Shown: positions 1,175 through 58,976, counted from the first letter of the stretch. The stretch: DNA of 64,000 nucleotides from Candidatus Buchananbacteria bacterium CG10_big_fil_rev_8_21_14_0_10_33_19 (GCA_002773855.1 PEZY01000012.1:233565-297564), one strand, 5' to 3'. Translations and numbers: made by a program. Notes: a model not told the origin generated them from the letters alone.

Positions 1175-1954
1175 ATGGAAATATCGATTATTATAAATAA
1201 TTATAAAACTAAGGGTCTACTTAAACAGTGTTTGGCCGGTATTTATGCTTATCCACCAAGTGTGAGTTATGAAATTATTGTCGTAGACAATAACTCGCAA
1301 GACGGTTCGGTAGAAATGGTAAAAGATAAATTCCCTCAAGTTAAATTGGTTGCATCTGGTGAAAATTTGGGTCATCATCGGGGTAACAATTTGGGTATTA
1401 AAAATTCTAGTGGTAAATATATTTTAATTTTAAATACTGATATTGCTTTTTTGGATAATTCCATTGATCGAATTTATAATTTTATGGAATCTCATTCCGA
1501 GGCGGCACTGACCGGACCAAAATTAAAAAACCCCGATGGTTCTATTCAGATGTCTTGTATGAGATTTCCTAGTAAATTAGTACCTATTTATCGTCGAACC
1601 TTTTTGGGTAATTTTTCTTTTGCTAAGAAAGAAATAGATCATTATTTAATGAAAGATTTTGATCACATGTCGACCAAAGAAGTGGATTGGATATTAGGTG
1701 CTTGTGTCATGATTAGAAAATCAGCTATTGATAAGGTCGGACCAATGGATGAAAGTTTATTTTTGTACTTTGGCGATATTGCTTGGTGTCGTAAATTTTG
1801 GGAGTTTAATTATAAAGTTTATTATTTTGTGGACGCTAATATCATTCATTATCATAAACGCGAATCCGCTCAGAGTGGTATTTTTTCGTTGGTATTTTGG
1901 ATTCATATTATTGATTGGTTAAGGTATTTAAAAAAATATTCAGTAAAAAACTAA
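1175..1954 (+). CDS. Glycosyltransferase family 2
   Basis: ISIIINNYK...EIIVVDNNSQDGS GT2 signature. Start is 2 nt after the upstream stop (coupled). Confidence 0.75.
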   Translation: MEISIIINNYKTKGLLKQCLAGIYAYPPSVSYEIIVVDNNSQDGSVEMVKDKFPQVKLVASGENLGHHRGNNLGIKNSSGKYILILNTDIAFLDNSIDRIYNFMESHSEAALTGPKLKNPDGSIQMSCMRFPSKLVPIYRRTFLGNFSFAKKEIDHYLMKDFDHMSTKEVDWILGACVMIRKSAIDKVGPMDESLFLYFGDIAWCRKFWEFNYKVYYFVDANIIHYHKRESAQSGIFSLVFWIHIIDWLRYLKKYSVKN

Positions 1955-3897
1955 TGATTGAAAGTTATAATATTATTAACCAGCAGGCTAAATCAATGAA
2001 CAGCCTAAGATTTAAGGTGATAGCAACTATCATCACTGTTTTTTTGATTGGTCTAGTGATTGTTTTTACGCCATTTGTATTTCATGGTATTAGAGCGGCT
2101 AGTTATGTGACAGCGTCCATTTCTGAGGCTAAAATTTTATTAGCCAATGTCGACAATAAAGATTGGCAACAAGCCGTAGAATCATCAGAATCAATTGAGG
2201 CTAATTTGTCAAAACTAAATACTGAGATTTCTGGCTTAGGCTTAATTAGCAAGCTACCAAAATTAAAAAATGATTTTAAGGTTGGCCAGCAGTTTATTGT
2301 AGTGGCTCAGTCGTTGGTTGGTGGTTATGCTGAAACATTTAAAATTTTTGCCACTATCGAACAAGCAGGTTTAACTGTTGATCCTAATATTTTATTAGAA
2401 AATAAAGAGGTGATTAATTTGATTAGTCAAAATAAAACTCAATTAGCTTTAGCCAAAAAACAATTAGAAATAGCTAATGCTAGTTTTTCGGAAATTGATA
2501 CTAATGATTTTTCAGGATTTTTTGCTAGTTATCTGATTCAGGCTCATGATGTGCTAGGTCAGGTGCTTGCCAGCACGAATATTGGCTTGCCAGTTATGGG
2601 TTTGTTACCAGACTTGTTGGGTTATAATGGCGAAAAGCATTATCTACTTATTCTTGAAAACAATATGGAACTGCGGCCAACTGGTGGCTTCATCGGATCA
2701 TACGGTATTATTACTGTCGAGTCTGGTAAGATAAAAAATCTAATTACCGATGATGTTTATAATTTGGATAAATTATCCGAGGGTAAATTATTAGAGTTAG
2801 CACCAGAGCCAATGCTAACATATAACAGACAAAAATATTGGTATATGCGTGATGCTAATTGGTATGCTGGCTGGCCAGATTCAGCTAATAAGATAGTAGA
2901 ATTTTTTCATATTGAAAGACAGAATGCTAATTTGCCTGATCAGCGAATTGATGGGGTGATTGCGATTACACCAGACTTTATTGCCAATCTTTTAGCTGTT
3001 TTAGGGCCTATTAATAGTCATGGTATTGTGTTTTCGGAGAATAATTTTGCGATGGATTTGGAAGAATTTGTGGAAGGTGGTTTTGAAGCTAAAAATATTC
3101 CTTATGATGAGCGCAAATCAATAATTGGTGACTTGTCTAAAATTTTAATTTCTAGAATAGAAAATACCACAGCGGAAAATTTTTCTAAATTATGGCTCGC
3201 TTTCAAAAAGAATATTGATGAAAAAAATATTTTAGTTTATATTTTTGATAATAAATTACAACAGTATTTTTCTGATCAGAATTGGGCCGGAGAAATTAGA
3301 CAAACTAATGGTGATTATTTGATGTTGATTGATAGTAATTTTGCTTCGCTCAAGACTGATGCGGTAATGGAACGATCTATTAAAAGAAGTTTAAGTTTAA
3401 ACGAGGCTGGTGATTTAATGGCGCATTTAGAAATTACTTACAAGCACAATGGTCAGTTTGTTAAGGATTTAATTACCAGATATCGAACTTATGCCAAGGT
3501 TTATGTACCAGCTGGTTCGTGGTTTGAAAGTGGATCAATTAAAGATGAAACTGGTGAGACGGTGCTTAATATGTCTAGTGATTTAACTTATGGCAATGAG
3601 TACAATAAAGCTTATGCCACTTACTTTGTAATTATTGAGCCAGGTAAATCAAAAACTGTAATTTTAAATTATAAATTGCCCAAAAATATTTTGGATCAAT
3701 ATAATCAAGGCACGTATAATTTGTTGGTTCAAAAGCAACCGGGCACCATTGGACATAAACTGGGAATTGATTTAAACTTGAGTAAAGAAATTTCGGCCTA
3801 TAAAGCGGCTATCTTACCCAATTATTATGGTAAAACGTCAATAGGCTGGGAGAGTGATTTGACTGTCGACAGGGAGTATAAAATTAAATTTAATTAG
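1954..3897 (+). CDS. Large membrane-anchored extracytoplasmic protein, possibly DUF4012-like, associated with the GT cluster
   Basis: Single N-terminal TM helix then a ~600-aa soluble domain. The start ATG overlaps the upstream stop (TAATG). The ORF track's longer start at 1915 overlaps the GT2 gene. Family assignment is from memory, not verified. Confidence 0.4.
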   Translation: MIESYNIINQQAKSMNSLRFKVIATIITVFLIGLVIVFTPFVFHGIRAASYVTASISEAKILLANVDNKDWQQAVESSESIEANLSKLNTEISGLGLISKLPKLKNDFKVGQQFIVVAQSLVGGYAETFKIFATIEQAGLTVDPNILLENKEVINLISQNKTQLALAKKQLEIANASFSEIDTNDFSGFFASYLIQAHDVLGQVLASTNIGLPVMGLLPDLLGYNGEKHYLLILENNMELRPTGGFIGSYGIITVESGKIKNLITDDVYNLDKLSEGKLLELAPEPMLTYNRQKYWYMRDANWYAGWPDSANKIVEFFHIERQNANLPDQRIDGVIAITPDFIANLLAVLGPINSHGIVFSENNFAMDLEEFVEGGFEAKNIPYDERKSIIGDLSKILISRIENTTAENFSKLWLAFKKNIDEKNILVYIFDNKLQQYFSDQNWAGEIRQTNGDYLMLIDSNFASLKTDAVMERSIKRSLSLNEAGDLMAHLEITYKHNGQFVKDLITRYRTYAKVYVPAGSWFESGSIKDETGETVLNMSSDLTYGNEYNKAYATYFVIIEPGKSKTVILNYKLPKNILDQYNQGTYNLLVQKQPGTIGHKLGIDLNLSKEISAYKAAILPNYYGKTSIGWESDLTVDREYKIKFN

Positions 3898-3902
3898 TTT
3901 AA

Positions 3903-4910
3903 ATGTTTTTAAAAAGAATTGGAATCGATTTAGGCACGACCAATATTTTGGTGCATGTGCCCAAAAAAGGAGTAGTGATTAATGAGCCATCGGTAGTGGC
4001 TATTTCTAATGTGGATAAAAAAATTATTGCCGTTGGTGCTGAAGCCAAGGAAATGTTGGGACGGACTCCGGACACAATTATTGCTCAGCGACCACTGAAA
4101 GATGGCGTGATTGCTGACTACAAAACAACTGAAGCGATGCTTAGATATTTTATTAACAAAGCCTTGGGTGGTGTGCGAATATTTCGGCCCGAGGTGATGG
4201 TAGCGGTGCCAGCGGGTATTACTTCTACTGAAAGAAGAGCAGTCATTGATGCGACTATTGCCGCTGGTGCTAAAGCCGCTTATATTATTAAAGAACCAAT
4301 TGTGGCGGCTATTGGGGCTAATATTCCCATTGGTAGCGCTTCCGGACATATGATTATTGATATTGGTGGTGGGACTTCGGAAATTGCGGTGATATCACTT
4401 GGTGGCATTGTGTCTTCAACTTCTGTGAGAATTGGTGGTAATAAATTGGATGTAGCTATTACTGAAGGGATTAGAAAAAAATATGGTTTAGCGATTGGTG
4501 AGCGAACCGCCGAACAAGTGAAAATTAATATTGGTTCAGCCCTGTATTTAGAAGAAAAGCTTTATATGGATGTGCGGGGCCGTGATATGATTACTGGATT
4601 GCCAAAAACTATTGCGGTGTCATCTGATGATGTGACGGATTCCATTCAAGCGGAATTAGAAGGTATTAGTAGTGCGGTGAAAAATGTCTTGTATAAAACG
4701 CCACCAGAGCTATCAGCTGATGTCATCGATAAGGGGATTGTCATGTCTGGTGGGACTAGCTTGCTACGAAATATTGATAAAATGGTGTCTTTAAGTACGG
4801 GGGTATCGGCCTATGTAGCCGATGATGCCTTGTATTGTGTAGCTAAAGGTACAGGGATTGCGTTGGATAATTTGGAGAGTTATAAGAGGAGTATTTTGGC
4901 GACGAAGTAA
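3903..4910 (+). CDS. mreB: Rod shape-determining protein, MreB/Mbl actin-like ATPase (paralog 1)
   Basis: [14 protein letters not shown] phosphate-1 motif, DIGGGTSEIAV, GGTSLL, full length 335 aa. Confidence 0.9.
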   Translation: MFLKRIGIDLGTTNILVHVPKKGVVINEPSVVAISNVDKKIIAVGAEAKEMLGRTPDTIIAQRPLKDGVIADYKTTEAMLRYFINKALGGVRIFRPEVMVAVPAGITSTERRAVIDATIAAGAKAAYIIKEPIVAAIGANIPIGSASGHMIIDIGGGTSEIAVISLGGIVSSTSVRIGGNKLDVAITEGIRKKYGLAIGERTAEQVKINIGSALYLEEKLYMDVRGRDMITGLPKTIAVSSDDVTDSIQAELEGISSAVKNVLYKTPPELSADVIDKGIVMSGGTSLLRNIDKMVSLSTGVSAYVADDALYCVAKGTGIALDNLESYKRSILATK

Positions 4911-8209: not shown

Positions 8210-9276
8210 AAACAAATCGCATATTAATTTTTTCTTGTTTAATCGTCATAGCTTTGCTAGTGAGTGGCTGTACGATTAGTATTGGGGGTAATTCTAAAAA
8301 AGTGGTTGATGGTGGGGTTTATAAGTCCATTGACGGCAGTGCTACTTGGAATCAGGTAGCGGTAGTACCAACAGCTAATGGAAAAGTGGCCAGTATTTCC
8401 AATGTCGATATTCGTCGAATGATTTTTGATCCATCAGATTATAACACCATTTATTTATCTACCGAAACAGATGGCGTAGTTTACACTAATAATGGTGGTG
8501 ATAACTGGAACCAATTTAAGCAATTTGTTGGTCAAAAAATCAGATCAATTGGTGTCGATGCCAAGGATAAATGCAATTTGTATGTTTTGTCCGCTAATAA
8601 ACTTTATAAATCTACAGATTGTGGCCGATTTTGGACTGATGTTTATGTTCATCAAAATGCTGATGTAATTTTAACCGATGTTTTGGTGGATTATTTCAAT
8701 AGCTCAATTATTTATATGACCACTAGTGTCGGTGAAGTGTTAAAGAGTACTGATAGTGGCATGGCTTGGGCCACAGTTAACCGCGTAGACCGAGGCGTAT
8801 TTTTGGACTTAGCTATTGATCCCAAGAATAGTCGCATAGTCTATGCCGCGACCGAAAAGCATGGAGTTTATAAGACTATAGATGGCGGCGCAACTTGGGA
8901 GAGCTTGGGCATTGGTTTAAAAGCTTATGCTGGTAGTCAAGAGTATAGGAGCTTAATTATTGATCAGTCGGCTAAAAATAGTTTGATTTTAATCTCAAAA
9001 TTTGGCATGCTAAGGACTCAGGATGGTGGCACTACTTGGGAGGTCATAGAACTATTGCCAGCTTCTAAGAAAACAACTATTTATTCAGCGGCTATAAATC
9101 CTCGTGATAGCCAAGAAATTTATTATGCCACTAGAACAACATTAGTTAAATCTACTGATGGTGGAAAAACTTGGTCGTCACAGGATTTACCTACCACTAG
9201 ATCGGCTAATAAAATTATTATCAATCCAACTAATCCAGATATAGTTTATTTGGGAGCCATGAATGCTAGTAATTAG
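8206..9276 (+). CDS. Lipoprotein with BNR/Ycf48-like beta-propeller repeats
   Basis: Signal peptide plus lipobox (LVSGC). Repeated S/T-x-D-G-G-x-TW motifs. ATGA overlap with the holB stop. Confidence 0.6.
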   Translation: MKTNRILIFSCLIVIALLVSGCTISIGGNSKKVVDGGVYKSIDGSATWNQVAVVPTANGKVASISNVDIRRMIFDPSDYNTIYLSTETDGVVYTNNGGDNWNQFKQFVGQKIRSIGVDAKDKCNLYVLSANKLYKSTDCGRFWTDVYVHQNADVILTDVLVDYFNSSIIYMTTSVGEVLKSTDSGMAWATVNRVDRGVFLDLAIDPKNSRIVYAATEKHGVYKTIDGGATWESLGIGLKAYAGSQEYRSLIIDQSAKNSLILISKFGMLRTQDGGTTWEVIELLPASKKTTIYSAAINPRDSQEIYYATRTTLVKSTDGGKTWSSQDLPTTRSANKIIINPTNPDIVYLGAMNASN

Positions 9277-12788: not shown

Positions 12789-13826
12789 ATGTTCAAAAAA
12801 CTAACAAGAAAATTCAGTAAGGGTTTAGGTATTGATTTAGGTAGTACCAAAACTATGATCTATCAGCAAGATAGGGGTATTGTAGTTAATGAGTCCTCAA
12901 TAGTGGCAGTCAATAACCGCACCGATCAAATTTTAGCGGTAGGAGATGAAGCTAGAAGAATGATGGGTAAGACGCCACCTCATATTATTGCGACTGCACC
13001 ATTATACCATGGCATTATTTCTGATTTTGAAATTACCGAAAAAATGCTTAAATATTTGATGGATAAAGTGCGAGCCGGTAAGTTTGCTTTTTCGGCTAAA
13101 CCGAGAGTAGTAGTGGGTGTGCCGTTGGATTTAACTGAAGTAGAAAAAAAAGCGGTAGAAGATGTGGTGATGTCAGCTGGTTCTAGTCAGGTTAACTTGG
13201 TAGAGAATATTATGGCAGCGGCTGTGGGAGCTAGAATTCCAATTCAAGATCCGTCTGGTAATATGATTGTTAATTTAGGTGGTGGTCTAACCGAGATTGC
13301 GGTTATATCACTGGATGGTATTGTAAATTGGAAAGTCACCAGAACTGCTGGACTAAGTTTAGATAAGGATATTATTAAATTTGCTCGTGATGAGTTTAAT
13401 TTGGTTTTGGGCGAAATGGTAGCTGAAGATATTAAAAGAAAAATTGGTTCGGCTCTAGAATTAGAAGAACCAATTGAGATGCAAATGCGTGGTCGAGATG
13501 TAATGTCTGGATTGCCAAAAGAATTTGATATTAATGATATGCAAATTAGAGACGCTATGCATAAATCAATTCAACATATTTTAGATACAATTAAGGCGAC
13601 ACTAGAAACCACACCGCCAGAGTTGGTAGCTGATATTTATCAAAAAGGCATTATTTTAACCGGTGGCGTGGCTATGCTTAAAAATATCGATAAATTTATT
13701 GCTCAGGGTATTGAAATACCGGTGCACGTAGCCGACGACCCTCAAACTTGCACGGTTAGAGGCATGGGGGTAATTATTGAGGATGAGGTGTTACTGCAAG
13801 ATATATTGGTGCCATCATCTCAATAG
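12789..13826 (+). CDS. mreB: Rod shape-determining protein MreB (paralog 2, in the mre operon)
   Basis: GIDLGSTKT, NLGGGLTEIAV actin-fold motifs. Followed by mreC and mreD. Confidence 0.9.
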   Translation: MFKKLTRKFSKGLGIDLGSTKTMIYQQDRGIVVNESSIVAVNNRTDQILAVGDEARRMMGKTPPHIIATAPLYHGIISDFEITEKMLKYLMDKVRAGKFAFSAKPRVVVGVPLDLTEVEKKAVEDVVMSAGSSQVNLVENIMAAAVGARIPIQDPSGNMIVNLGGGLTEIAVISLDGIVNWKVTRTAGLSLDKDIIKFARDEFNLVLGEMVAEDIKRKIGSALELEEPIEMQMRGRDVMSGLPKEFDINDMQIRDAMHKSIQHILDTIKATLETTPPELVADIYQKGIILTGGVAMLKNIDKFIAQGIEIPVHVADDPQTCTVRGMGVIIEDEVLLQDILVPSSQ

Positions 13827-17784: not shown

Positions 17785-18501
17785 ATGAAAATTAAAATGA
17801 CCGACCTAGAGGGTTATTTCAAATCTTTGAGTGAAAAGGAATTATCAGAAATTTTAATTAGAGAAATTTCTAGATTAAATCCAAATTTAAATTTTGTTGA
17901 ATATCTTATTTCACTGGGTGCTAATGTAGATAATTCAAAAAATTTTTATCGGCCATCTATTTCACCTCTGTATCAAGCGGCTTCCAGTGGCAATTTGTCG
18001 GTTTTTAAGTTATTACTCGATTCAGGAGCTAATGTTTACGAAGAAATAATGTTTAAAGGGTCGCCACTGCACATCGCAGCAGCATGCGGACATTTGGAAA
18101 TTATTAAATACATATTGTCTTTAGGTGTGGGTGTTGACTATACTAGCTCAATTGCCATAACACCATTACATTTAGCGGCTAAAAATGGTCAATTGAAAGT
18201 GATTGAATTCTTGCTAGATTTTGGTGCCAATATTGATAGTGAATCTACTTATAGAACACCAATACATTGGGCAGTTATTGGTAATCAATTAGCAACAGTT
18301 GAACTCCTCATTTCTCGAGGTGCTAATTTAGATAATATTTATTATGGTAACGATGGTTATGGCGGTAAAGATTTGGATTTAATTGGAGTAGCCTTAACTG
18401 AAAGTTTGGATATTAATATGGGTCATATAGTGACTGCGGAAAGTCGCAGAATTGCTCAAATTATTGAAAAAGCAAAAAAAGCTAGAAAAACAAAAAGCTG
18501 A
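17785..18501 (+). CDS. Ankyrin-repeat protein
   Basis: At least 5 ANK repeats (..TPLH.AA..G......LL..GA..). Confidence 0.8.
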   Translation: MKIKMTDLEGYFKSLSEKELSEILIREISRLNPNLNFVEYLISLGANVDNSKNFYRPSISPLYQAASSGNLSVFKLLLDSGANVYEEIMFKGSPLHIAAACGHLEIIKYILSLGVGVDYTSSIAITPLHLAAKNGQLKVIEFLLDFGANIDSESTYRTPIHWAVIGNQLATVELLISRGANLDNIYYGNDGYGGKDLDLIGVALTESLDINMGHIVTAESRRIAQIIEKAKKARKTKS

Positions 18502-53668: not shown

Positions 53669-53841
53669 AATTATTTTTTATAGTAAATAAAAAAACCGTC
53701 TTTCTACGTGGAGGGCGGTTTTGTGTTTGATTATTGCCAATTAATAAACATTTGACATACCTCTATTAAATTAATAGATATCAGTTTATTTGCCAATATA
53801 ACTATATTATGTGCTATTATAACATATATTATACACTGTTG

Positions 53842-53870
53842 TTGACAAATAGAACTATTTTTGATATAAT
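53842..53870 (+). promoter_or_regulatory. Consensus sigma70 promoter
   Basis: TTGACA, 17-nt spacer, TATAAT (perfect -35 and -10). Confidence 0.7.
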
Positions 53871-53964: not shown

Positions 53965-55152
53965 ATGTCTATATTAGATCAAGTTAGAAAAACTCAATTT
54001 CAAGATAATATGGCTGGTTTCAATCCTATGGAAACTATCAATATTTTACTTTCACGTTTGACCGACAAGGAAAAAGATGTTGTTAAACGTAGATTCGGTT
54101 TAGAGGCTGATTCTAAACAAACCCTAGAGGAAATTGGTAAACACTATGGTATTACTAGGGAAAGGGTTAGACAAATAGAAAATTTGAGTATCAAAAAATT
54201 AAAAGAACTTCAAGAATTAAAAGATGAAATACTAACTGCCGAAAGAGTAACTGCTCAGTTATTAGAACAATACGGTGGGGTGATGGAAGAAGAGTTTTTC
54301 TTGGAAAATATTTTAAACTATTTAGATACTAGAGATGGCAGTGAAAATGCCTTGTTATTTTTGGCTGATCACATTTTTTCTGATAATATTAATAAGGTTA
54401 AACAAGATAAAGAGTTTAATCATTTATGGCGAATGGATTCTGTGGATACAAATACTTTGAAAGAAGTAATTGGTGAAATGGTGGCATTAATTGAAAATCA
54501 TAATAAACCAATTAAGTTAAAGGATTTATTGGATAATTTTAAAAATTCAGAATACTACTCTAAAAATCGTGAAAAATTCTTGTCAGCTACTACTTTTTTA
54601 GAAGCTACAGAAGAAGATATTGATAAGGTTTTAGAGAGTTATTTAAGAGTTAGTCGTCGTGTAAAATCCAATTTATTTGATGAATGGGGTTTAATTTCTT
54701 GGGGTACAGTACAACCAAAGAAAATAAATGATAAAATCTATATAGTTTTAAAGAAATCTGGTCAACCGTTACATTTTGTGGATATTGCCAAAGCTATTAA
54801 TGAAACTAGATTTGATGAAAAGATTGCCTATCCACCAACAGTTCATAATGAATTAATTTTGGACAATAAATATGTGTTAGTTGGCCGTGGTATTTATGCC
54901 TTAAAAGAGTGGGGCTATGAGCCTGGTAACGTAGCTAATGTGGTAGAACAGTACTTAAAAGACAATGGTCCAAAAACTAAGGATGAAATTATTAACTATG
55001 TTTTGAGTAAGAGAAATGTTAAAAAGTCCACTGTATATTTGTCTTTAATGAATAATGATAATATTCAAAAAAACGATAGCGGTAAATATGTATATATTGA
55101 AAATTCAAATTCTGACGATAGTTCAGCAGTTTTAAACTCAGATAATCAATAA
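53965..55152 (+). CDS. Sigma-70 region 4-like HTH fused to a C-terminal HARE-HTH-like domain
   Basis: LTDKEKDVVKRRFGL....TLEEIGKHYGITRERVRQIENLSIKKLK is a region 4.2-like HTH. No regions 2/3. C-terminal ...LHFVDIAKAINE....TVHNELILDNKYVLVGRGIYALKEWGY resembles HARE-HTH. Start uncertain (53965 or 54011). Confidence 0.55.
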   Translation: MSILDQVRKTQFQDNMAGFNPMETINILLSRLTDKEKDVVKRRFGLEADSKQTLEEIGKHYGITRERVRQIENLSIKKLKELQELKDEILTAERVTAQLLEQYGGVMEEEFFLENILNYLDTRDGSENALLFLADHIFSDNINKVKQDKEFNHLWRMDSVDTNTLKEVIGEMVALIENHNKPIKLKDLLDNFKNSEYYSKNREKFLSATTFLEATEEDIDKVLESYLRVSRRVKSNLFDEWGLISWGTVQPKKINDKIYIVLKKSGQPLHFVDIAKAINETRFDEKIAYPPTVHNELILDNKYVLVGRGIYALKEWGYEPGNVANVVEQYLKDNGPKTKDEIINYVLSKRNVKKSTVYLSLMNNDNIQKNDSGKYVYIENSNSDDSSAVLNSDNQ

Positions 55153-55264: not shown

Positions 55265-56725
55265 ATGGGTAAAAATGGTATTAACATAGAAATTGATTTT
55301 TTATCAATTTGGAATACAATCATAGACTTTGGTTCTCAAAATCCAGTTATCATAGCAACTCAGATTTTTCTAGGCGGTGGCTGGGTAGTTTTTTTGTTAC
55401 TTTTTATTTATGGTCTTTATACTGTTTGGTTGGATGGCCGGCAAGCTAGGTTTGCTTCTAAGTGGAAGCATATATTATTGGCTATAGATATACCTAAAAA
55501 TAATATTCAAACTCCTAAGGCAGTAGAGAGTATTTTTATCGCTTTAGCCGGCGCTCAGTCTGGCGGTAATTTGGTTGATTTATATTGGAGTGGAAAAGTA
55601 CAAGAAAGTTTTTCATTTGAAATTGTTAGCTTGGAAGGGTATGTGCAATTTTTGGTTAGAACTCCTGTTCATTTTAGGGATTTGATTGAGGCAGCAGTTT
55701 ATGCCCAGTATCCTGAAGCCGAAATTACGGAAGTTGATGATTATGCTAGTCAATATAGTGATGTTAAATTTCCTAATGATAAGTATAATCTTTGGGGTAC
55801 AGAACTAGTTTTAGCTCGCGATTATCCTTATCCAATCAGGACTTATTCTGATTTTGAACATAAGTTAACTGGTGAATTAATCGATCCAATGGCTGGAGTT
55901 TTGGAAACTCTAACTAGACTTGGTCCAGGAGAGCAAGTTTGGTTGCAATTTGTAATCACACCACAAAAACCGGGTTGGGGCGAGAAAGGTAAAAAGATTT
56001 TAAAAGAAATGAAGGGTGAACCATACACACCACCAGAAACTTTTTCTGATAAAATTATTAAACCAATTAGTTTTATTGGTGATTTAGCTATGGCAGTGAG
56101 CAATGAAATTTTTGGCGCTGATGAAGTAGCCAAGAAAAAGGAAGAGGATCAATGGAAGATGTTTAGGATTTCACCTGGTGAGAGATTGGTTTTTGAGAAT
56201 GTCCAAAGAAAGTTAGCTCAGCATGTCTTTAGATTAAAATTTAGGTTTGTTTATTTTGGTGAAAAGGAAGTTTTTAATAAGGGCAGAGGAGTGGCTTCTA
56301 TAATTTCTGGCTTGCAACAGTTTAATGTGGCTGATTCCAATGGCTTTAAGCCAGGTCCTAGAACTAAAACATCAGCTGATTATTTTAATGTTAATAAACG
56401 AGTAGCTGAGTTGCAAAAGCGAATTTTACGTAACTATATTAAGCGTAACAATTACAATGGTGATGATGTTAGTAATATGATGGTTTGTAGTGAGGAATTA
56501 GCTTCATTGTGGCATTTCCCAGTTATGAGTGTTAAAGCACCAACAGTGGAGAAAATAGGCTCTAAGCGATCTGTGCCGCCATCACGGTTACCTTATGATA
56601 CTGGTCGAGTTCAGCCAAATATACAGTTACCAACACTCGAATCAGTTAACACCGTAGAAAATAAGCCAGAGATCAAAGAATCTAGACCAAAACCAACACC
56701 ACCAGCTAATTTACCAACTGTTTAA
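55265..56725 (+). CDS. Membrane-anchored protein (2 N-terminal TM) with a large soluble domain, partner of the downstream ATPase
   Basis: 486 aa. N-terminal TM helices (VIIATQIFLGGGWVVFLLLFIYGLYTVWL). Pro/Thr-rich C-terminus. 4-nt gap to the next gene. Confidence 0.5.
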   Translation: MGKNGINIEIDFLSIWNTIIDFGSQNPVIIATQIFLGGGWVVFLLLFIYGLYTVWLDGRQARFASKWKHILLAIDIPKNNIQTPKAVESIFIALAGAQSGGNLVDLYWSGKVQESFSFEIVSLEGYVQFLVRTPVHFRDLIEAAVYAQYPEAEITEVDDYASQYSDVKFPNDKYNLWGTELVLARDYPYPIRTYSDFEHKLTGELIDPMAGVLETLTRLGPGEQVWLQFVITPQKPGWGEKGKKILKEMKGEPYTPPETFSDKIIKPISFIGDLAMAVSNEIFGADEVAKKKEEDQWKMFRISPGERLVFENVQRKLAQHVFRLKFRFVYFGEKEVFNKGRGVASIISGLQQFNVADSNGFKPGPRTKTSADYFNVNKRVAELQKRILRNYIKRNNYNGDDVSNMMVCSEELASLWHFPVMSVKAPTVEKIGSKRSVPPSRLPYDTGRVQPNIQLPTLESVNTVENKPEIKESRPKPTPPANLPTV

Positions 56726-56729
56726 AAAA

Positions 56730-58418
56730 ATGAATCAAGAAGAAACTTTGAATGAGATAACTTTGTTTGGCGAAACTAATTTTCGCAATCAAAAAAAGCG
56801 TTTTGGTATTAAACGTGATGACCGAAGACGCCATGTTTATATTATCGGTAAAACTGGTATGGGTAAGACTACTTTATTAGAAAATATGATAATTTCTGAT
56901 ATTGTCAATGGTGATGGTTGTTGCTATGTTGATCCCCATGGTGATACGGCTGAAAAGATATTAGATTTTATTCCTCCTAGCAGAATTAATGATGTTATTT
57001 ATTTTAACCCAGCAGATACCGAATTTCCCATTGCTTTTAATATATTAGAAGCCGTTGATGAAAAAAGTAAGCATTTAATTGCTTCTGGATTAGTTGGCGT
57101 GTTTAAGAAGCAATTTGCTGATAGTTGGGGACCAAGATTAGAATATATTTTGCGTAACGCTATTTTAGCTTTATTGGATTATCCGGGTAGTACTCTATTG
57201 GGTATTATGAGAATTTTAGTTGACAATAGTTATCGTGAGAAGGTGGTTGAAAAAATTACCGATCCAGTAGTTAAATCTTTTTGGGTCAATGAGTATACTA
57301 AATGGAATGATAGAACATTACAAGAGGTAATATCTCCAATTCAAAACAAGGTTGGTCAGTTTTTGTCTAATTTTTTAATTAGGAATATTGTTGGTCAGGT
57401 GAAGTCAACTTTTGATTTGCGCGAAGTTATTGATGGTCGAAAAATATTAATTATGAATTTATCCAAGGGTAGGATTGGCGAGGACACGATGCAACTTTTA
57501 GGTTCGATGATTGTGACTAAACTGTATTTAGCGGCCATGAGTCGCGTTGATATACCAGAGAAAGATCGAAAAGACTTTTATTTGTATGTTGATGAATTTC
57601 AAAATTTTGCTACTGACAGTTTTGCTGATATTTTATCAGAGGCTAGAAAATATCGACTTAATTTGACCATGGCTCACCAATTTATTGAGCAGTTACCAGA
57701 AACCGTTTCGGCTTCAGTGTTTGGTAATGTGGGTACTTTGTTATGTTTTCGAGTTGGCGCAGCCGATGCAGAAAAGCTAGTGAAGGAGTTTACGCCAATA
57801 TTTTTAGAAGAAGATTTAGTTAATTTGCCAGCTTTTAGTATTTATTTAAAGTTAATGATTGATGGTGTTTCATCTGATCCATTTTCGGCTAATACTTTAC
57901 CGCCATTATTTGATGAGTATAGATCAAATAGCACTGAAAGAGTGGTTAAAGTTTCTCGAGAAAGGTATGCTAATCATCGTAAATCCATAGAAGATAAAAT
58001 AAATCGTTGGAGTGGTATGGATTTAAGTGAAAAAATGATAGCCACTAGCGAAGGGCATGTTAATTTTAAGTCAGAAAGAGATAAGCAGATTAAGACACAA
58101 CACAGAACATCAGTAGACAATAAATTTACCAAGCCTAAGCCCAAGGAGGACAAAAAATTAGAAGAAAAATACATTGTAGATTGTTTTTCTTGTGGTAAAA
58201 CTGCCGAAATTAATTTTTTTCCTGATGGCAAGCGTCCAGTTTTTTGTAAAGATTGTTTGGTTAAGAGCCGACAAGATAGGCAAATTAAAAATAACGCAAC
58301 AGACAAAGCGGTGTCACCAAAAATTGCAACAAAAATTTTAGAACAACCACAAGAGGCTGTACAGACTATCAGTTTGGCTGACTTGGGTAAAAGATCGGAG
58401 ACGCCGAATAATAAATAG
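56730..58418 (+). CDS. TrwB/TraD/VirD4-family (type IV coupling protein-like) P-loop ATPase, soluble, with a C-terminal Cys4 zinc ribbon
   Basis: Walker A IIGKTGMGKTT followed by CYVDPHGD (TrwB-like), Walker B YLYVDEFQNF, RKYRLNLTMAHQ arginine/Gln motif. C-terminal CFSCGK...CKDCL. Confidence 0.6.
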   Translation: MNQEETLNEITLFGETNFRNQKKRFGIKRDDRRRHVYIIGKTGMGKTTLLENMIISDIVNGDGCCYVDPHGDTAEKILDFIPPSRINDVIYFNPADTEFPIAFNILEAVDEKSKHLIASGLVGVFKKQFADSWGPRLEYILRNAILALLDYPGSTLLGIMRILVDNSYREKVVEKITDPVVKSFWVNEYTKWNDRTLQEVISPIQNKVGQFLSNFLIRNIVGQVKSTFDLREVIDGRKILIMNLSKGRIGEDTMQLLGSMIVTKLYLAAMSRVDIPEKDRKDFYLYVDEFQNFATDSFADILSEARKYRLNLTMAHQFIEQLPETVSASVFGNVGTLLCFRVGAADAEKLVKEFTPIFLEEDLVNLPAFSIYLKLMIDGVSSDPFSANTLPPLFDEYRSNSTERVVKVSRERYANHRKSIEDKINRWSGMDLSEKMIATSEGHVNFKSERDKQIKTQHRTSVDNKFTKPKPKEDKKLEEKYIVDCFSCGKTAEINFFPDGKRPVFCKDCLVKSRQDRQIKNNATDKAVSPKIATKILEQPQEAVQTISLADLGKRSETPNNK

Positions 58419-58427
58419 CAGTAGCTT

Positions 58428-58976
58428 ATGTGGGAGTTAGTTATTAAATCATTTTACCTTGCTCTGCCGGCTTATTTGGCTAATATGTCGCCGGTTATAT
58501 TTGATAAATTAGGATTATTTAAGTCTTTGGCTCAGCCCATTGATGGTGGTAAAAAAATAGGCACAGAATTTATTTTTGGGAGGTCTAAAACTTGGCGAGG
58601 ATTGCTGTCTGGTGCAATATTTGGTGTAGTAGTGACTTGGATTCAAGCTGGATTATATAGCGTTACTTTTTTTAAAAGCTTGTCGCTAGTAGATTACCCG
58701 CGTCATTTTATTGCTTTTGGTTTGTTGGCAGGCCTGGGGGCTATACTTGGTGATTTAATAAAAAGTTTTTTTAAACGTCGCTTTAATATTAAAAGTGGTA
58801 GTAGTTGGCCAGTATTTGATCAGTTGGATTTTATTGCTGGTTTTTTTATTGCAACTTACTATTTGGTTGGTTTTGATGTGGGTGTTGTTGTAGTTGTTTT
58901 TTTGATTACTTTAATACTACATCCCTTAACTAATCTATTAGCTTACCAGCTGGGCTTTAAAAAAGTTTGGTGGTGA
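58428..58976 (+). CDS. CDP-archaeol synthase-like (CarS/DUF46) CTP-transferase membrane protein
   Basis: LPAYLANMSPVIF...PIDGGKK......GRSKTWRG closely matches the CarS family signature. 182 aa, 5 TM. Confidence 0.55.
   Translation: MWELVIKSFYLALPAYLANMSPVIFDKLGLFKSLAQPIDGGKKIGTEFIFGRSKTWRGLLSGAIFGVVVTWIQAGLYSVTFFKSLSLVDYPRHFIAFGLLAGLGAILGDLIKSFFKRRFNIKSGSSWPVFDQLDFIAGFFIATYYLVGFDVGVVVVVFLITLILHPLTNLLAYQLGFKKVWW

What the first reader, a model, noticed from the sequence alone, without database searches (positions are those of the whole stretch)
55265..58418. Split, pilus-less coupling-protein-like module: membrane protein plus a soluble TrwB/VirD4-family ATPase with a zinc ribbon
The 562-aa protein has the hallmarks of type IV coupling proteins: Walker A GKTGMGKTT, a CYVDPHGD box, DEFQNF Walker B, and an R...HQ motif. 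Unlike canonical T4CPs it has no N-terminal TM helices and ends in a Cys4 zinc ribbon. The gene 4 nt upstream encodes a 486-aa protein with two N-terminal TM helices that could supply the membrane anchor in trans. No relaxase, VirB4 or other T4SS/conjugation genes are in the window; the neighbours are secDF and lipid genes. This looks like a chromosomal, possibly housekeeping DNA- or protein-translocating ATPase module rather than a mobile element.
Basis: partly seen in the sequence, partly recalled or inferred. Interest (0 to 1): 0.72.

Follow-up and report, generated by a model that had tools for sequence, protein, structure and literature searches.

The report
Split type IV coupling-protein ATPase pair
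Two adjacent core-genome genes of a Patescibacteria (CPR) bacterium encode the two halves of a conjugation-type "coupling protein" motor that is a single protein in related bacteria: a membrane-anchored domain folded like the front half of VirB4, and a soluble TrwB/VirD4-like ATPase with a zinc ribbon. What it transports is still unknown.

The parts
53842..53870 (+). Perfect sigma-70-type promoter match (TTGACA-17-TATAAT with TG), possibly the start of the transcription unit
   Evidence: 12/12 match. It follows a terminator-like hairpin at 53692-53722 after secF. The only terminator-like site on + between 53918 and 59159 is a weak one at 55453-55470, inside the DUF8128 coding sequence. This is a consensus scan only.
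53965..55152 (+). Sigma70 region-4 + HARE-HTH protein, a conserved upstream neighbour
   Evidence: Pfam Sigma70_r4 5.8e-15, with a weak HARE-HTH hit. Gene callers start it at 53965. It lies directly upstream of DUF8128 in 38/80 species loci. S. epibionticum SEML1_0294 has the same domains, is essential, and sits upstream of SEML1_0293.
55265..56725 (+). Membrane subunit: a DUF8128 protein (486 aa), consisting of one TM helix, a VirB4-N-terminal-domain-like cytoplasmic domain, a linker and a docking tail
55343..55441 (+). Single hydrophobic TM segment (aa ~27-59)
   Evidence: the only Kyte-Doolittle windows above 1.4. Flank charges are -2 (N side) and +3 (C side), giving N-out/C-in. The AF2 helix spans 27-65.
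56492..56596 (+). Conserved end of the DUF8128 domain: EELASLWHFP (aa 410-419) through GSKRSVPPSRLPY (aa 432-444)
   Evidence: E411, L412, A413, H417, F418, P419, K424, P439, L442 and P443 are invariant in A1. The same motif precedes the ATPase half in fused homologues.
56699..56722 (+). C-terminal tail PPANLPTV (aa 479-486), the proposed docking peptide for the ATPase
   Evidence: A P-x-[N/D/G]-[L/I/P]-P motif (typically PPxNLP) lies within the last 14 residues of the DUF8128 ORF in 66 of 80 species loci. In fused proteins PPANLP lies immediately before the ATPase N-terminus.
56730..58418 (+). Soluble T4CP-family (TrwB/VirD4-like) ATPase with a C-terminal zinc ribbon (562 aa)
   Evidence: Searches give the family scores. 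PDB sequence hits are DotL and TrwB at ~1e-7. The AF2 model (pLDDT 66.2) gives Foldseek hits to TrwB at 7.8e-10, DotL at 1.4e-9, HerA at 7.8e-8 and Cag-beta at 5e-7. Identity is 60-90% across many Patescibacteria.
56847..56873 (+). Walker A GKTGMGKTT
   Evidence: invariant G40, K41, G43, G45, K46 and T48 in A2.
57060..57392 (+). Helical insertion between Walker A and Walker B (aa ~111-221), the counterpart of the T4CP all-alpha domain
   Evidence: The AF2 secondary structure shows helices 111-221. The TrwB_AAD_bind match spans aa 30-349.
57579..57680 (+). Walker B YLYVDEFQNF and the ARKYRLNLTMAHQ motif
   Evidence: invariant in A2.
58020..58181 (+). Variable, highly charged linker (aa 431-484)
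   Evidence: aa 431-480 hold 13 K+R and 10 D+E residues. The segment is variable in length and sequence in A2 and has pLDDT below 50.
58182..58256 (+). CxxC-x17-CxxC treble-clef zinc ribbon
   Evidence: zf_Tbcl_2 and TIGR04272 both score above cut-off. The four Cys are invariant in A2. The ribbon is present in 39 of 45 complete adjacent ATPase ORFs. The domain binds zinc in Methanosarcina small proteins (PMC12704099).

Best explanation
The two genes encode one machine in two pieces. It is a split form of the single-chain 'DUF8128-T4CP' proteins, a form in which Patescibacteria widely carry type IV coupling proteins.

Subunit 1 (486 aa) is tethered to the membrane by one N-out/C-in TM helix. 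It places a VirB4-N-terminal-domain-like module in the cytoplasm. A flexible Pro-rich linker ends in the tail PPANLPTV.

Subunit 2 (562 aa) is a TrwB/VirD4-type RecA-fold NTPase with an all-alpha insertion. By homology it should assemble into a ring, probably a hexamer, and hydrolyse ATP.

In the fused relatives PPxNLP sits directly before the ATPase N-terminal beta-strands. I therefore infer that the tail docks there and holds the ATPase at the membrane. The assembled protomer would have VirB3/VirB4-like geometry (TM, N-terminal domain, ATPase) with a coupling-protein-type motor. Translation of the two genes is probably coupled, given the 4-nt gap.

The ATPase carries a charged flexible arm ending in a zinc ribbon. 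I propose this is the substrate or adaptor recognition module, most likely for nucleic acid or nucleoprotein. It would play the role that C-terminal extensions play in TraD and DotL.

The module would then act as an ATP-driven substrate receptor and translocation motor at the cytoplasmic membrane. Whether it hands substrates to the T4SS that most Patescibacteria encode elsewhere, or works alone, is unresolved. I put this at roughly even odds.

Shown here: family membership, the fold match, split-versus-fused collinearity, tail conservation, and core-genome synteny. Inferred: the complex itself, ring formation, ATPase activity, the role of the zinc ribbon, and the substrate.
For: - T4CP family scores are above the curated cut-offs. 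The best structural matches are TrwB, DotL and Cag-beta.
- Both window proteins align collinearly to single chains. DUF aa 27-443 aligns to P0421 aa 2-381 (29%, 3e-46). ATPase aa 8-430 aligns to P0421 aa 389-809 (57%, 4e-172).
- 108 of 120 gp156 homologues contain both halves in order. Precomputed Pfam shows PF26449 plus PF10412 in the same proteins. PHROG 5156 is hit by both window proteins at consecutive profile positions. hhalign of the DUF8128 profile against phage G gp156 aa 29-323 gives 97.2% probability.
- In 51 of 80 species-level loci the ATPase lies directly downstream on the same strand, and half of the gaps are 9 nt or less.
- The PPxNLP-type tail is at the C-terminal end of the membrane subunit in 66 of 80 loci and forms the inter-domain junction in fused forms.
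- Fused paralogues sit beside PrgI/TraC-like/VirB4/pilin clusters in four genomes.
- The same zinc-ribbon type occurs twice in a stand-alone RGG-rich protein (L079), which is weak support for nucleic-acid binding.
Against: - There is no direct evidence that the two proteins bind each other.
- In 21 of 72 loci that could be evaluated, the ATPase is not within ~6 kb of the DUF8128 gene, so the linkage is strong but not obligatory.
- DUF8128 shows no sequence-level similarity to VirB4, to the Patescibacterial VirB4, or to the small gene upstream of it. The link to VirB4 rests on one AF2 model (pLDDT 73.6) with low global TM-scores (~0.3) and high rmsd, which fits a change in domain orientation.
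- The ATPase model is only moderate (pLDDT 66).
- No T4SS, relaxase or obvious substrate gene lies nearby.
- The probable orthologue in S. epibionticum is dispensable, so the function is conditional at least there.
- The substrate assignment is analogy only.
Confidence: 0.6

Rival explanations
1. This is the first reader's view in its strict form: a T4SS-independent, housekeeping DNA or protein translocase. It would act on its own at the membrane, for example in DNA uptake or export, or in nucleic-acid scavenging from the host, with no secretion channel partner.
For: - It has its own TM anchor, whereas the T4SS-adjacent paralogues lack one.
- Core-genome synteny with secDF and a sigma-like gene is conserved down to ~35% DUF8128 identity.
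- VirD4-type homologues occur in 2,918 of 3,035 Patescibacteria genomes, but VirB4 in only 2,417, and only 148 of 5,713 homologues lie near virB4. The authors raise exaptation (PMC12102498).
- The ATPase core is very highly conserved, at 60-90% identity.
Against: - 'Housekeeping' conflicts with the Tn-seq call (NE at all time points) for the probable orthologue SEML1_0293.
- No characterised T4CP works without a channel.
- A single TM helix per subunit is unlikely to form a DNA pore by itself.
- Saccharibacteria keep a canonical, essential FtsK, so there is no vacant DNA-pump role.
- The VirB4-NTD-like domain suggests docking to T4SS inner-membrane parts.
Confidence: 0.3
2. A protein-export accessory linked to SecDF. 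The ATPase would deliver or unfold particular proteins at the membrane next to the Sec machinery.
For: secD-secF lies directly upstream on the same strand in 42 of 80 loci, and next to a fused orthologue-like gene, in convergent orientation, in L087. Some T4CPs, such as DotL and VirD4, do handle protein substrates (established knowledge).
Against: - Synteny alone is weak. The sigma-like gene and a terminator-like hairpin followed by a consensus promoter separate secF from the pair in the window.
- Many loci have the pair without secDF (L002).
- There is no known precedent.
Confidence: 0.05
3. A component of an anti-phage defence system (a HerA/mad8-like ATPase with a membrane effector).
For: PADLOC mad8 hits at 1e-20 and there are weak HerA hits. 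HerA structures appear among the Foldseek hits.
Against: - No other MADS or defence genes are nearby.
- The gene is present with conserved core synteny across many species, rather than patchily in islands.
- The DUF8128 protein has no PADLOC hit.
- T4CP models score higher than HerA models.
Confidence: 0.03
4. A remnant of an integrated conjugative element or prophage, given that phage G and SPO1-like phages carry homologues.
For: Homologues occur in jumbo Bacillus phages (phage G gp156, next to a VirB4-like gp155). The family as a whole is conjugation-derived.
Against: - GC content is 0.30-0.39 across the whole window and 0.32-0.35 across the pair, with no local deviation there.
- No integrase, transposase, relaxase or att-like features were found among the ORFs scanned.
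- The flanks are housekeeping genes.
- The same locus is found in at least 23 contigs from several samples, and the synteny holds across classes.
- No viral-contig relatives of DUF8128 were found.
Confidence: 0.02

Closest known systems
VirD4/TrwB/TraD-type type IV coupling proteins (TrwB of R388, PDB 1e9r/1e9s; DotL; Cag-beta)
   Same: RecA-fold NBD with Walker A and B motifs, a helical insertion between them, and a TraG-D_C region. It passes the Pfam TrwB_AAD_bind, T4SS-DNA_transf and TraG-D_C cut-offs, and these are its best structural matches. A variable C-terminal extension is plausibly used for substrate or adaptor binding.
   Different: The ATPase chain has no N-terminal two-helix TMD. 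It is not linked to a T4SS or relaxase. It carries a C-terminal CxxC-x17-CxxC zinc ribbon. It is paired (or, in relatives, fused) with a ~370-aa VirB4-NTD-like domain that canonical T4CPs lack. Identity to TrwB in structural alignment is only ~17-20%.
VirB4/TrwK (PDB 7o42, 8rtb), together with VirB3 and VirB3-VirB4 fusions
   Different: No sequence similarity is detectable. The ATPase half is T4CP-like, not VirB4-like: there is no AAA_10, P-loop_TraG or CagE_TrbE_VirB hit, and TIGR00929 scores 24.7 bits against a cut-off of 643. Patescibacterial T4SS loci carry their own VirB4 as well as a DUF8128-T4CP.
Single-chain DUF8128-T4CP proteins of Patescibacteria (for example P0483, P0442, P0488 and P0492 beside T4SS clusters; P0427, P0448, P0417 and P0421 in core contexts; S. 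epibionticum SEML1_0142 and SEML1_0293)
   Same: They are homologous over both halves: 50-59% identity in the ATPase for the closest forms (32-59% across all Patescibacterial forms listed) and 23-30% in DUF8128. They share the PPxNLP junction and the conserved ATPase N-terminus.
   Different: In the window the protein is split into two genes at the junction. The split form carries the zinc ribbon (all 120 listed split-type ATPases except two partial sequences have PF23477, against one of 120 listed gp156 homologues, itself a split-type ATPase). T4SS-adjacent forms lack the TM helix.
TMD-less T4CP plus a membrane partner in Gram-positive plasmids (pIP501 TraJ with TraI; also R27 TraG-TraJ pairs)
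   Same: The concept is the same: a soluble coupling ATPase brought to the membrane by a separately encoded membrane protein from the adjacent gene (review PMC7434980).
   Different: Those partners are small membrane proteins without a VirB4-NTD-like domain. They are plasmid-borne and embedded in tra operons. Homology to DUF8128 was not tested and none is expected.
Bacillus phage G gp156 and PHROG 5156
   Same: A fused DUF8128-like plus T4CP-like ATPase (825 aa); both window proteins hit the same PHROG profile in order.
   Different: It has no TM helix and no zinc ribbon, shares ~30% ATPase identity, is encoded by a phage, and lies next to a VirB4-like gp155. Its function is unknown.

Membership tests
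Type IV coupling protein (VirD4/TrwB/TraD; Pfam PF10412, PF02534, PF12696) | Sequence match to the family HMMs above the curated thresholds | tested here: met
   TrwB_AAD_bind 46.1 bits (cut-off 20.5), T4SS-DNA_transf 30.5 (20.1), TraG-D_C 23.7 (22). The equivalog-level NCBIfam models (TraD, CD1115, CedD) are far below their cut-offs, so it belongs to the superfamily and not to any named subfamily.
Type IV coupling protein (VirD4/TrwB/TraD; Pfam PF10412, PF02534, PF12696) | P-loop NBD with Walker A and B motifs and an all-alpha domain inserted between them; TrwB-like fold | tested here: met
   The motifs were located. The AF2 model has helices at aa 111-221 between the Walker motifs. Foldseek top hits are TrwB at 7.8e-10 and DotL at 1.4e-9, ahead of HerA. 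Model confidence is moderate (pLDDT 66).
Type IV coupling protein (VirD4/TrwB/TraD; Pfam PF10412, PF02534, PF12696) | N-terminal transmembrane domain on the same polypeptide | tested here: not met
   The ATPase has no hydrophobic segment (maximum Kyte-Doolittle 1.41). A single TM helix is supplied by the upstream DUF8128 protein. TMD-less T4CPs are a recognised subgroup.
Type IV coupling protein (VirD4/TrwB/TraD; Pfam PF10412, PF02534, PF12696) | Genetic linkage to a T4SS (virB4) and/or a relaxase | tested here: not met
   None was found among the 45 larger ORFs of the 64-kb window that were scanned. The rest of the genome could not be examined. Paralogues in other genomes are linked to T4SS clusters.
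Type IV coupling protein (VirD4/TrwB/TraD; Pfam PF10412, PF02534, PF12696) | Hexameric, DNA-stimulated ATPase that recruits substrates to a T4SS | not testable with these tools
   This requires biochemistry and genetics.
VirB4 (TrwK/TraC/CagE) | VirB4-type N-terminal domain fold | tested here: met
   [not shown]
VirB4 (TrwK/TraC/CagE) | VirB4-type ATPase domain (AAA_10, P-loop_TraG, CagE_TrbE_VirB, TIGR00929) | tested here: not met
   There are no AAA_10, P-loop_TraG or CagE_TrbE_VirB hits. TIGR00929 scores 24.7 bits against a cut-off of 643, on the P-loop only. hhalign against a Patescibacterial VirB4 gives 6.9% probability. No VirB4 appears in the top 50 Foldseek hits of the ATPase.
Pfam DUF8128 (PF26449) | Match to PF26449 | tested here: met
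   The precomputed Pfam annotation of the identical protein P0001 and of the called gene gives PF26449. The local Pfam copy returned no hit at all, apparently because it lacks the model. The family has 3,144 50%-identity clusters at E<=1e-3.
HerA / FtsK-SpoIIIE translocases | Match to DUF87/HerA or FtsK_SpoIIIE HMMs above cut-off; HAS-barrel or FtsK alpha/gamma domains | tested here: not met
   DUF87 scores 19 bits (cut-off 23.2) and FtsK_SpoIIIE 15.7 (24), on the P-loop region only. HerA structures rank below TrwB and DotL.
MADS defence system (mad8) | A mad8-like ATPase within an eight-gene mad operon | tested here: not met
   The PADLOC mad8 hit is 1e-20, but no other mad or defence genes are nearby and the context is core genome.

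The most novel reading that the evidence does not exclude
DUF8128-T4CP proteins may be a third, previously unrecognised lineage of the VirB4/VirD4 ATPase superfamily that keeps a VirB4-type N-terminal domain on a VirD4-type motor, in effect a 'missing link' between the two. On this reading the split, TM-anchored, zinc-ribbon form in the window is an exapted, T4SS-independent nucleic-acid translocase of the Patescibacterial core genome. It might, for example, import or export DNA or RNA at the epibiont-host interface.
Probability: 0.2. Interest if true: 0.8.

Novelty: new variant of a known kind. Interest (0 to 1): 0.55.

Why it matters
Patescibacteria are a large share of bacterial diversity and live as epibionts with tiny genomes. 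Their T4SS is the first shown to be essential for growth (Wang 2023). Nearly every genome also carries about two 'orphan' VirD4-like genes whose role is unknown (PMC12102498).

This analysis gives those orphans a defined anatomy:
- a VirB4-N-terminal-domain-like module (Pfam DUF8128) joined to a coupling-protein motor;
- existing either fused or split at a conserved PPxNLP junction;
- with at least three contexts: T4SS-adjacent without a TM helix; TM-anchored with an essential Saccharibacteria member; and linked to a sigma-like gene with a dispensable Saccharibacteria member.

That yields concrete, testable hypotheses: tail-to-ATPase docking, the zinc ribbon as cargo selector, and dependence on VirB4. 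It also bears on how VirB4 and VirD4 diverged. If the split form works without a T4SS, it would be a new kind of membrane-tethered nucleic-acid motor in a lineage that must scavenge nucleotides from hosts.

Tried and rejected
1. HerA, FtsK or VirB4 identity of the ATPase. Rejected on HMM scores and structural ranking.
2. ICE, prophage or defence-island context. Rejected after a Pfam scan of 45 window ORFs, the composition profile and cross-species synteny. PADLOC gives only a generic mad8/HerA ATPase hit.
3. Programmed +1 frameshift or slippage across the A-rich 4-nt junction (GTT TAA AAAA ATG) to make a fused protein. Rejected because gap lengths vary from -14 to +267 nt and the frame offsets are spread over all three frames (22/20/11) in 53 pairs.
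4. FtsK replacement. Not needed, because S. epibionticum keeps a canonical, essential FtsK.
5. Sequence-level link of DUF8128 to VirB4, the gene directly upstream of a Patescibacterial VirB4 (the position held by TraC-like PF26593 in related loci), phage G gp155, or any PDB chain. No signal was found.
6. DUF8128 relatives in IMG/VR viral contigs. None were found.
7. A Foldseek search of afdb50 was unavailable.
8. A literature search for 'DUF8128' returned no papers. The CxxC-x17-CxxC literature shows only zinc binding.
9. Other zinc ribbons of this type in the window. There are none.


Full report
**Observation**

The two ORFs are exactly as described: 55265-56725 (+, 486 aa) and 56730-58418 (+, 562 aa). 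They are separated by TAA-AAAA-ATG.

The 562-aa protein carries these motifs:
- GKTGMGKTT, aa 40-48
- CYVDPHGD, aa 65-72
- YLYVDEFQNF, aa 284-293
- ARKYRLNLTMAHQ, aa 305-317
- CFSCGKTAEINFFPDGKRPVFCKDC, aa 485-509

It passes the curated Pfam cut-offs for TrwB_AAD_bind (46.1 against 20.5 bits), T4SS-DNA_transf, TraG-D_C and the treble-clef finger zf_Tbcl_2, and for TIGR04272, the CxxC-x17-CxxC domain. HerA (DUF87) and FtsK models score below their cut-offs and match only the P-loop. The protein has no hydrophobic segment.

One detail of the observation needs correcting. The 486-aa protein has a single ~30-residue hydrophobic stretch (aa 27-59), modelled as one helix. The flanking charges predict an N-out/C-in topology, so its large domain is cytoplasmic.

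**Source and context**

Both proteins are 100% identical to proteins of a Candidatus Falkowbacteria MAG (Patescibacteria/CPR; GW933_01540). They recur on contigs of up to 565 kb in many samples.

GC content is ~0.30-0.39 throughout the window, and nearly all genes are on the + strand. A Pfam scan of 45 window ORFs found almost only core functions: MreB x2, MreC, PBP2, RodA, GyrB, DnaK/DnaJ/GrpE/HrcA, ProRS, HolB, RseP, RRF, RF1/PrmC, EF-Ts, S2, L25, GAPDH, a MacB ABC system, SecD/SecF, PlsC and MnmA. No T4SS, relaxase, integrase or transposase was found. The refutation condition 'inside an ICE' is therefore not met.

**The ATPase**

PDB sequence search finds only DotL and TrwB, at ~1e-7. An AF2 model (pLDDT 66.2) shows a RecA-type core with a helical insertion at aa 111-221, then a disordered charged linker, a small beta/alpha zinc ribbon (pLDDT ~80) and a disordered tail.

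Foldseek against the PDB ranks TrwB (7.8e-10) and DotL (1.4e-9) first, then HerA (7.8e-8) and Cag-beta (5e-7). No VirB4 or FtsK chain appears in the top 50. The second refutation condition, 'better match to HerA/FtsK/VirB4', is also not met.

The core (aa 1-430) is 60-90% identical across many Patescibacteria, with long invariant runs.

**The membrane partner**

The partner is Pfam DUF8128 (PF26449) according to the precomputed annotation. The local Pfam copy has no matching model. No paper mentions the family. A profile search of 1.84 billion representatives finds 3,144 clusters at E<=1e-3.

DUF8128 has no P-loop, and no other P-loop ATPase appears in either list. The match must therefore be to the VirB4 N-terminal, non-ATPase domain. 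This is an inference: the tools do not report the aligned ranges.

No sequence-level similarity was detectable to any PDB chain, to phage G gp155, to a Patescibacterial VirB4, or to the small gene upstream of it.

**The two genes are one unit**

1. Both window proteins hit one PHROG profile (phrog_5156, 824 positions) at consecutive positions: DUF8128 at 74-288 and the ATPase at 402-813.
2. Bacillus phage G gp156 (825 aa) contains both halves. hhalign of the DUF8128 profile against gp156 aa 29-323 gives 97.2% probability. tblastn of the ATPase against its C-terminal half gives 30% identity.
3. A search with gp156 returns more than 90 Patescibacterial proteins of 725-1,140 aa, nearly all annotated with PF26449 and most also with PF10412. 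They come from Berkel-, Falkow-, Gottesman- and Saccharibacteria, among others.
4. In 108 of 120 of these, both window proteins align in order. For example, DUF aa 27-443 aligns to P0421 aa 2-381 (29%, 3e-46), and ATPase aa 8-430 aligns to P0421 aa 389-809 (57%, 4e-172).
5. In a scan of GTDB species genomes, 550 pattern-matched stretches encode a relative (cap reached). Of the best 80 loci, all Patescibacteria, 51 have the ATPase directly downstream on the same strand. Twenty-one loci with at least 1.5 kb of downstream DNA do not.
6. Half of the gaps are 9 nt or less, and the frame offsets are spread over all three frames. The split is therefore genuine and not a programmed frameshift.

**The junction**

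In fused proteins the DUF8128 domain ends ...EELAS(I/L)(F/W)H(F/L/P)P...GSK(K/R)xEPPANLP. It is followed within ~12-22 residues by the conserved ATPase N-terminus ...(I/L)T(V/I)F(A/G)xT(D/N)(Y/F)R...FGIKxxDRRxH...GKTGxGKS.

In the window protein, the tail PPANLPTV lies at the extreme C-terminus after a variable linker. A P-x-[N/D/G]-[L/I/P]-P motif (typically PPxNLP) lies within the last 14 residues of the DUF8128 ORF in 66 of 80 loci. I infer that this tail docks onto the ATPase N-terminal region and so preserves the fused geometry.

The zinc ribbon correlates with the split form. All 120 listed split-type ATPases except two partial sequences have PF23477, and 39 of 45 complete adjacent ORFs have the Cys4 pattern. 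Only 1 of the 120 listed gp156 homologues has it, and that one is itself a split-type ATPase without a DUF8128 half.

**Paralogue classes and published data**

- Fused forms without a TM helix (P0483, P0488 and P0442, ~728 aa) and the 918-aa P0492 (TM status not checked) lie divergently next to PrgI/VirB3-like, TraC-like (PF26593), VirB4, Peptidase_M23 and T4SS-pilin genes, in three of the four cases near dnaN. These are presumably the real T4SS coupling proteins.
- Fused forms with a TM helix lie in housekeeping contexts (P0427 next to dnaX; P0448). P0475, another fused form (TM status not checked individually), also lies in a housekeeping context.
- P0448 shares gene order (Mg-chelatase-like, small ORFs, the gene itself, two reverse-strand genes, gyrB) with S. 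epibionticum SEML1_0142. That protein is 1,019 aa, essential at all Tn-seq time points, and preceded by an essential small ORF.
- SEML1_0293 (921 aa, PF10412 at aa 402-719) is non-essential. It lies directly downstream of SEML1_0294, a Sigma70_r4 + HARE-HTH protein. This is the same arrangement as in the window and in 38 of 80 loci, so I regard SEML1_0293 as the probable orthologue.
- Quinonero-Coronel et al. (PMC12102498) counted 5,713 VirD4-type homologues in 2,918 of 3,035 Patescibacteria genomes, only 148 of them near virB4. VirB4 is present in 2,417 genomes. They raised possible exaptation but did not describe the domain architecture.

**Mechanism**

The best-supported reading is a two-subunit, membrane-tethered T4CP-type motor. 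The anatomy rests on tool results: the TM helix, the VirB4-NTD-like domain, the PPxNLP tail, the TrwB-like ATPase, the flexible charged arm and the zinc ribbon.

Ring formation, ATP hydrolysis, tail docking and the cargo-selecting role of the zinc ribbon are inferences from family knowledge (TrwB hexamers; TraD and DotL C-terminal adaptor tails). One weak extra clue is that the same ribbon occurs twice in a stand-alone RGG-rich protein (L079). The domain binds zinc in archaeal small proteins (PMC12704099).

Whether the motor feeds the T4SS encoded elsewhere or acts alone is open. Four points favour independence:
- it has its own TM anchor;
- its core synteny is conserved (secDF in 42/80 loci, the sigma-like gene in 38/80);
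- T4CP homologues are more widespread than VirB4;
- the orthologue is dispensable whereas the T4SS is essential.

Three points favour a T4SS link:
- family precedent;
- 50-54% identity to the T4SS-adjacent paralogues;
- an N-terminal domain of the kind that docks VirB4 to VirB3 and the inner-membrane complex.

**Transcription**

A perfect sigma-70 consensus promoter (53842-53870) follows a terminator-like hairpin after secF. Apart from one weak terminator-like site at 55453-55470, inside the DUF8128 coding sequence, no terminator-like site lies on the + strand until ~59159. The sigma-like gene, the pair and the CarS-like gene may therefore be co-transcribed. This rests on a consensus scan only.

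**Verdict**

Three further conclusions follow:
1. The partner is a VirB4-NTD-like DUF8128 protein.
2. The pair is the split version of a fused architecture that is widespread in Patescibacteria and includes T4SS-linked members.
3. 'Housekeeping' and 'T4SS-independent' remain unproven.

The genes are already annotated in public records, and orphan T4CPs in this phylum have been noted in print. This is therefore a new variant of a known kind, not a new system. The domain architecture, the junction-tail logic and the paralogue classes appear to be undescribed.

Noticed in passing
window 53692-53722 and 53842-53870: A terminator-like hairpin after secF is followed by a perfect sigma-70 consensus promoter (TTGACA-17-TATAAT with an extended TG). 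This is unusually clean for an AT-rich CPR genome. It may drive the sigma-like gene, the DUF8128 gene, the ATPase and the CarS-like gene as one unit.
   Followed up: partly
window 53965-55152: A protein with Sigma70 region 4 near the N-terminus and a HARE-HTH further on, but no sigma region 2. It lies directly upstream of DUF8128 in 38 of 80 species loci. The S. epibionticum counterpart SEML1_0294 (annotated RpoS) is essential in Tn-seq. Its role, and the reason for its linkage to the T4CP-like genes, are unknown.
   Followed up: partly
window 58428-58976: A CarS-like (CDP-archaeol synthase family, PF01864, 3.3e-37) membrane protein starts 9 nt after the ATPase stop codon in a bacterial genome, followed by a DAGK-type lipid kinase. 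An archaeal-type lipid enzyme family in a CPR bacterium may merit its own look.
   Followed up: no
window 56720-56732: The junction GTT TAA AAAA ATG places the ATPase in the +1 frame across an A-rich run, so a +1 shift at the stop would recreate the fused protein. Gaps and frame offsets in 53 homologous pairs are not conserved, so this is probably coincidental.
   Followed up: yes
L088/L089 3264-6872, L093 3866-7927, L094 2301-5366: In three of the four T4SS loci examined (L093, L094 and the P0488 locus, which has no DNA on record), a separate ~220-aa TraC-like (PF26593) protein is encoded just upstream of VirB4. In L089 the corresponding 221-aa gene has no Pfam hit on record. It may correspond to the 'TrsD' that the literature describes as related to the VirB4 N-terminal part, which would parallel the DUF8128/ATPase split in the window. 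That equivalence was not tested.
   Followed up: partly
L003 2196-6338 (Bacillus phage G gp155-gp156): Jumbo phage G encodes a VirB4-like ATPase (gp155: P-loop_TraG, AAA_10, weak CagE_TrbE_VirB) immediately upstream of the fused DUF8128-T4CP gp156. SPO1-like phages and others carry related ATPases. Their function in phages is unknown.
   Followed up: partly
L087 3556-9784: Two fused DUF8128-type genes (831 and 927 aa) lie in tandem, each preceded by a small ORF (107 and 178 aa), convergent with secF-secD. Small ORFs also precede P0427, P0448 and the essential SEML1_0142 (SEML1_0141, itself essential). This suggests a conserved small partner protein.
   Followed up: no
L079, + strand ORF starting near 8988: A stand-alone ~210-aa protein with two CxxC-x17-CxxC ribbons embedded in RGG/Gly-Arg-rich low-complexity sequence. 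This hints that this ribbon type is used for nucleic-acid binding in Patescibacteria.
   Followed up: no
[not shown]
   Followed up: no
L010, L013, L015, L018, L023-L026, L075 and others: Many records titled 'uncultured Gammaproteobacteria bacterium' (binchicken co-assemblies) carry this Patescibacteria-type locus, and one is a 931-kb complete chromosome. The organism names in these records look like placeholders or mislabels.
   Followed up: no
window 17785-18501; 3903-4910 and 12789-13826; 1915-3897: An ankyrin-repeat protein (238 aa), two MreB paralogues and a 660-aa DUF4012 protein lie in an otherwise minimal core region.
   Followed up: no
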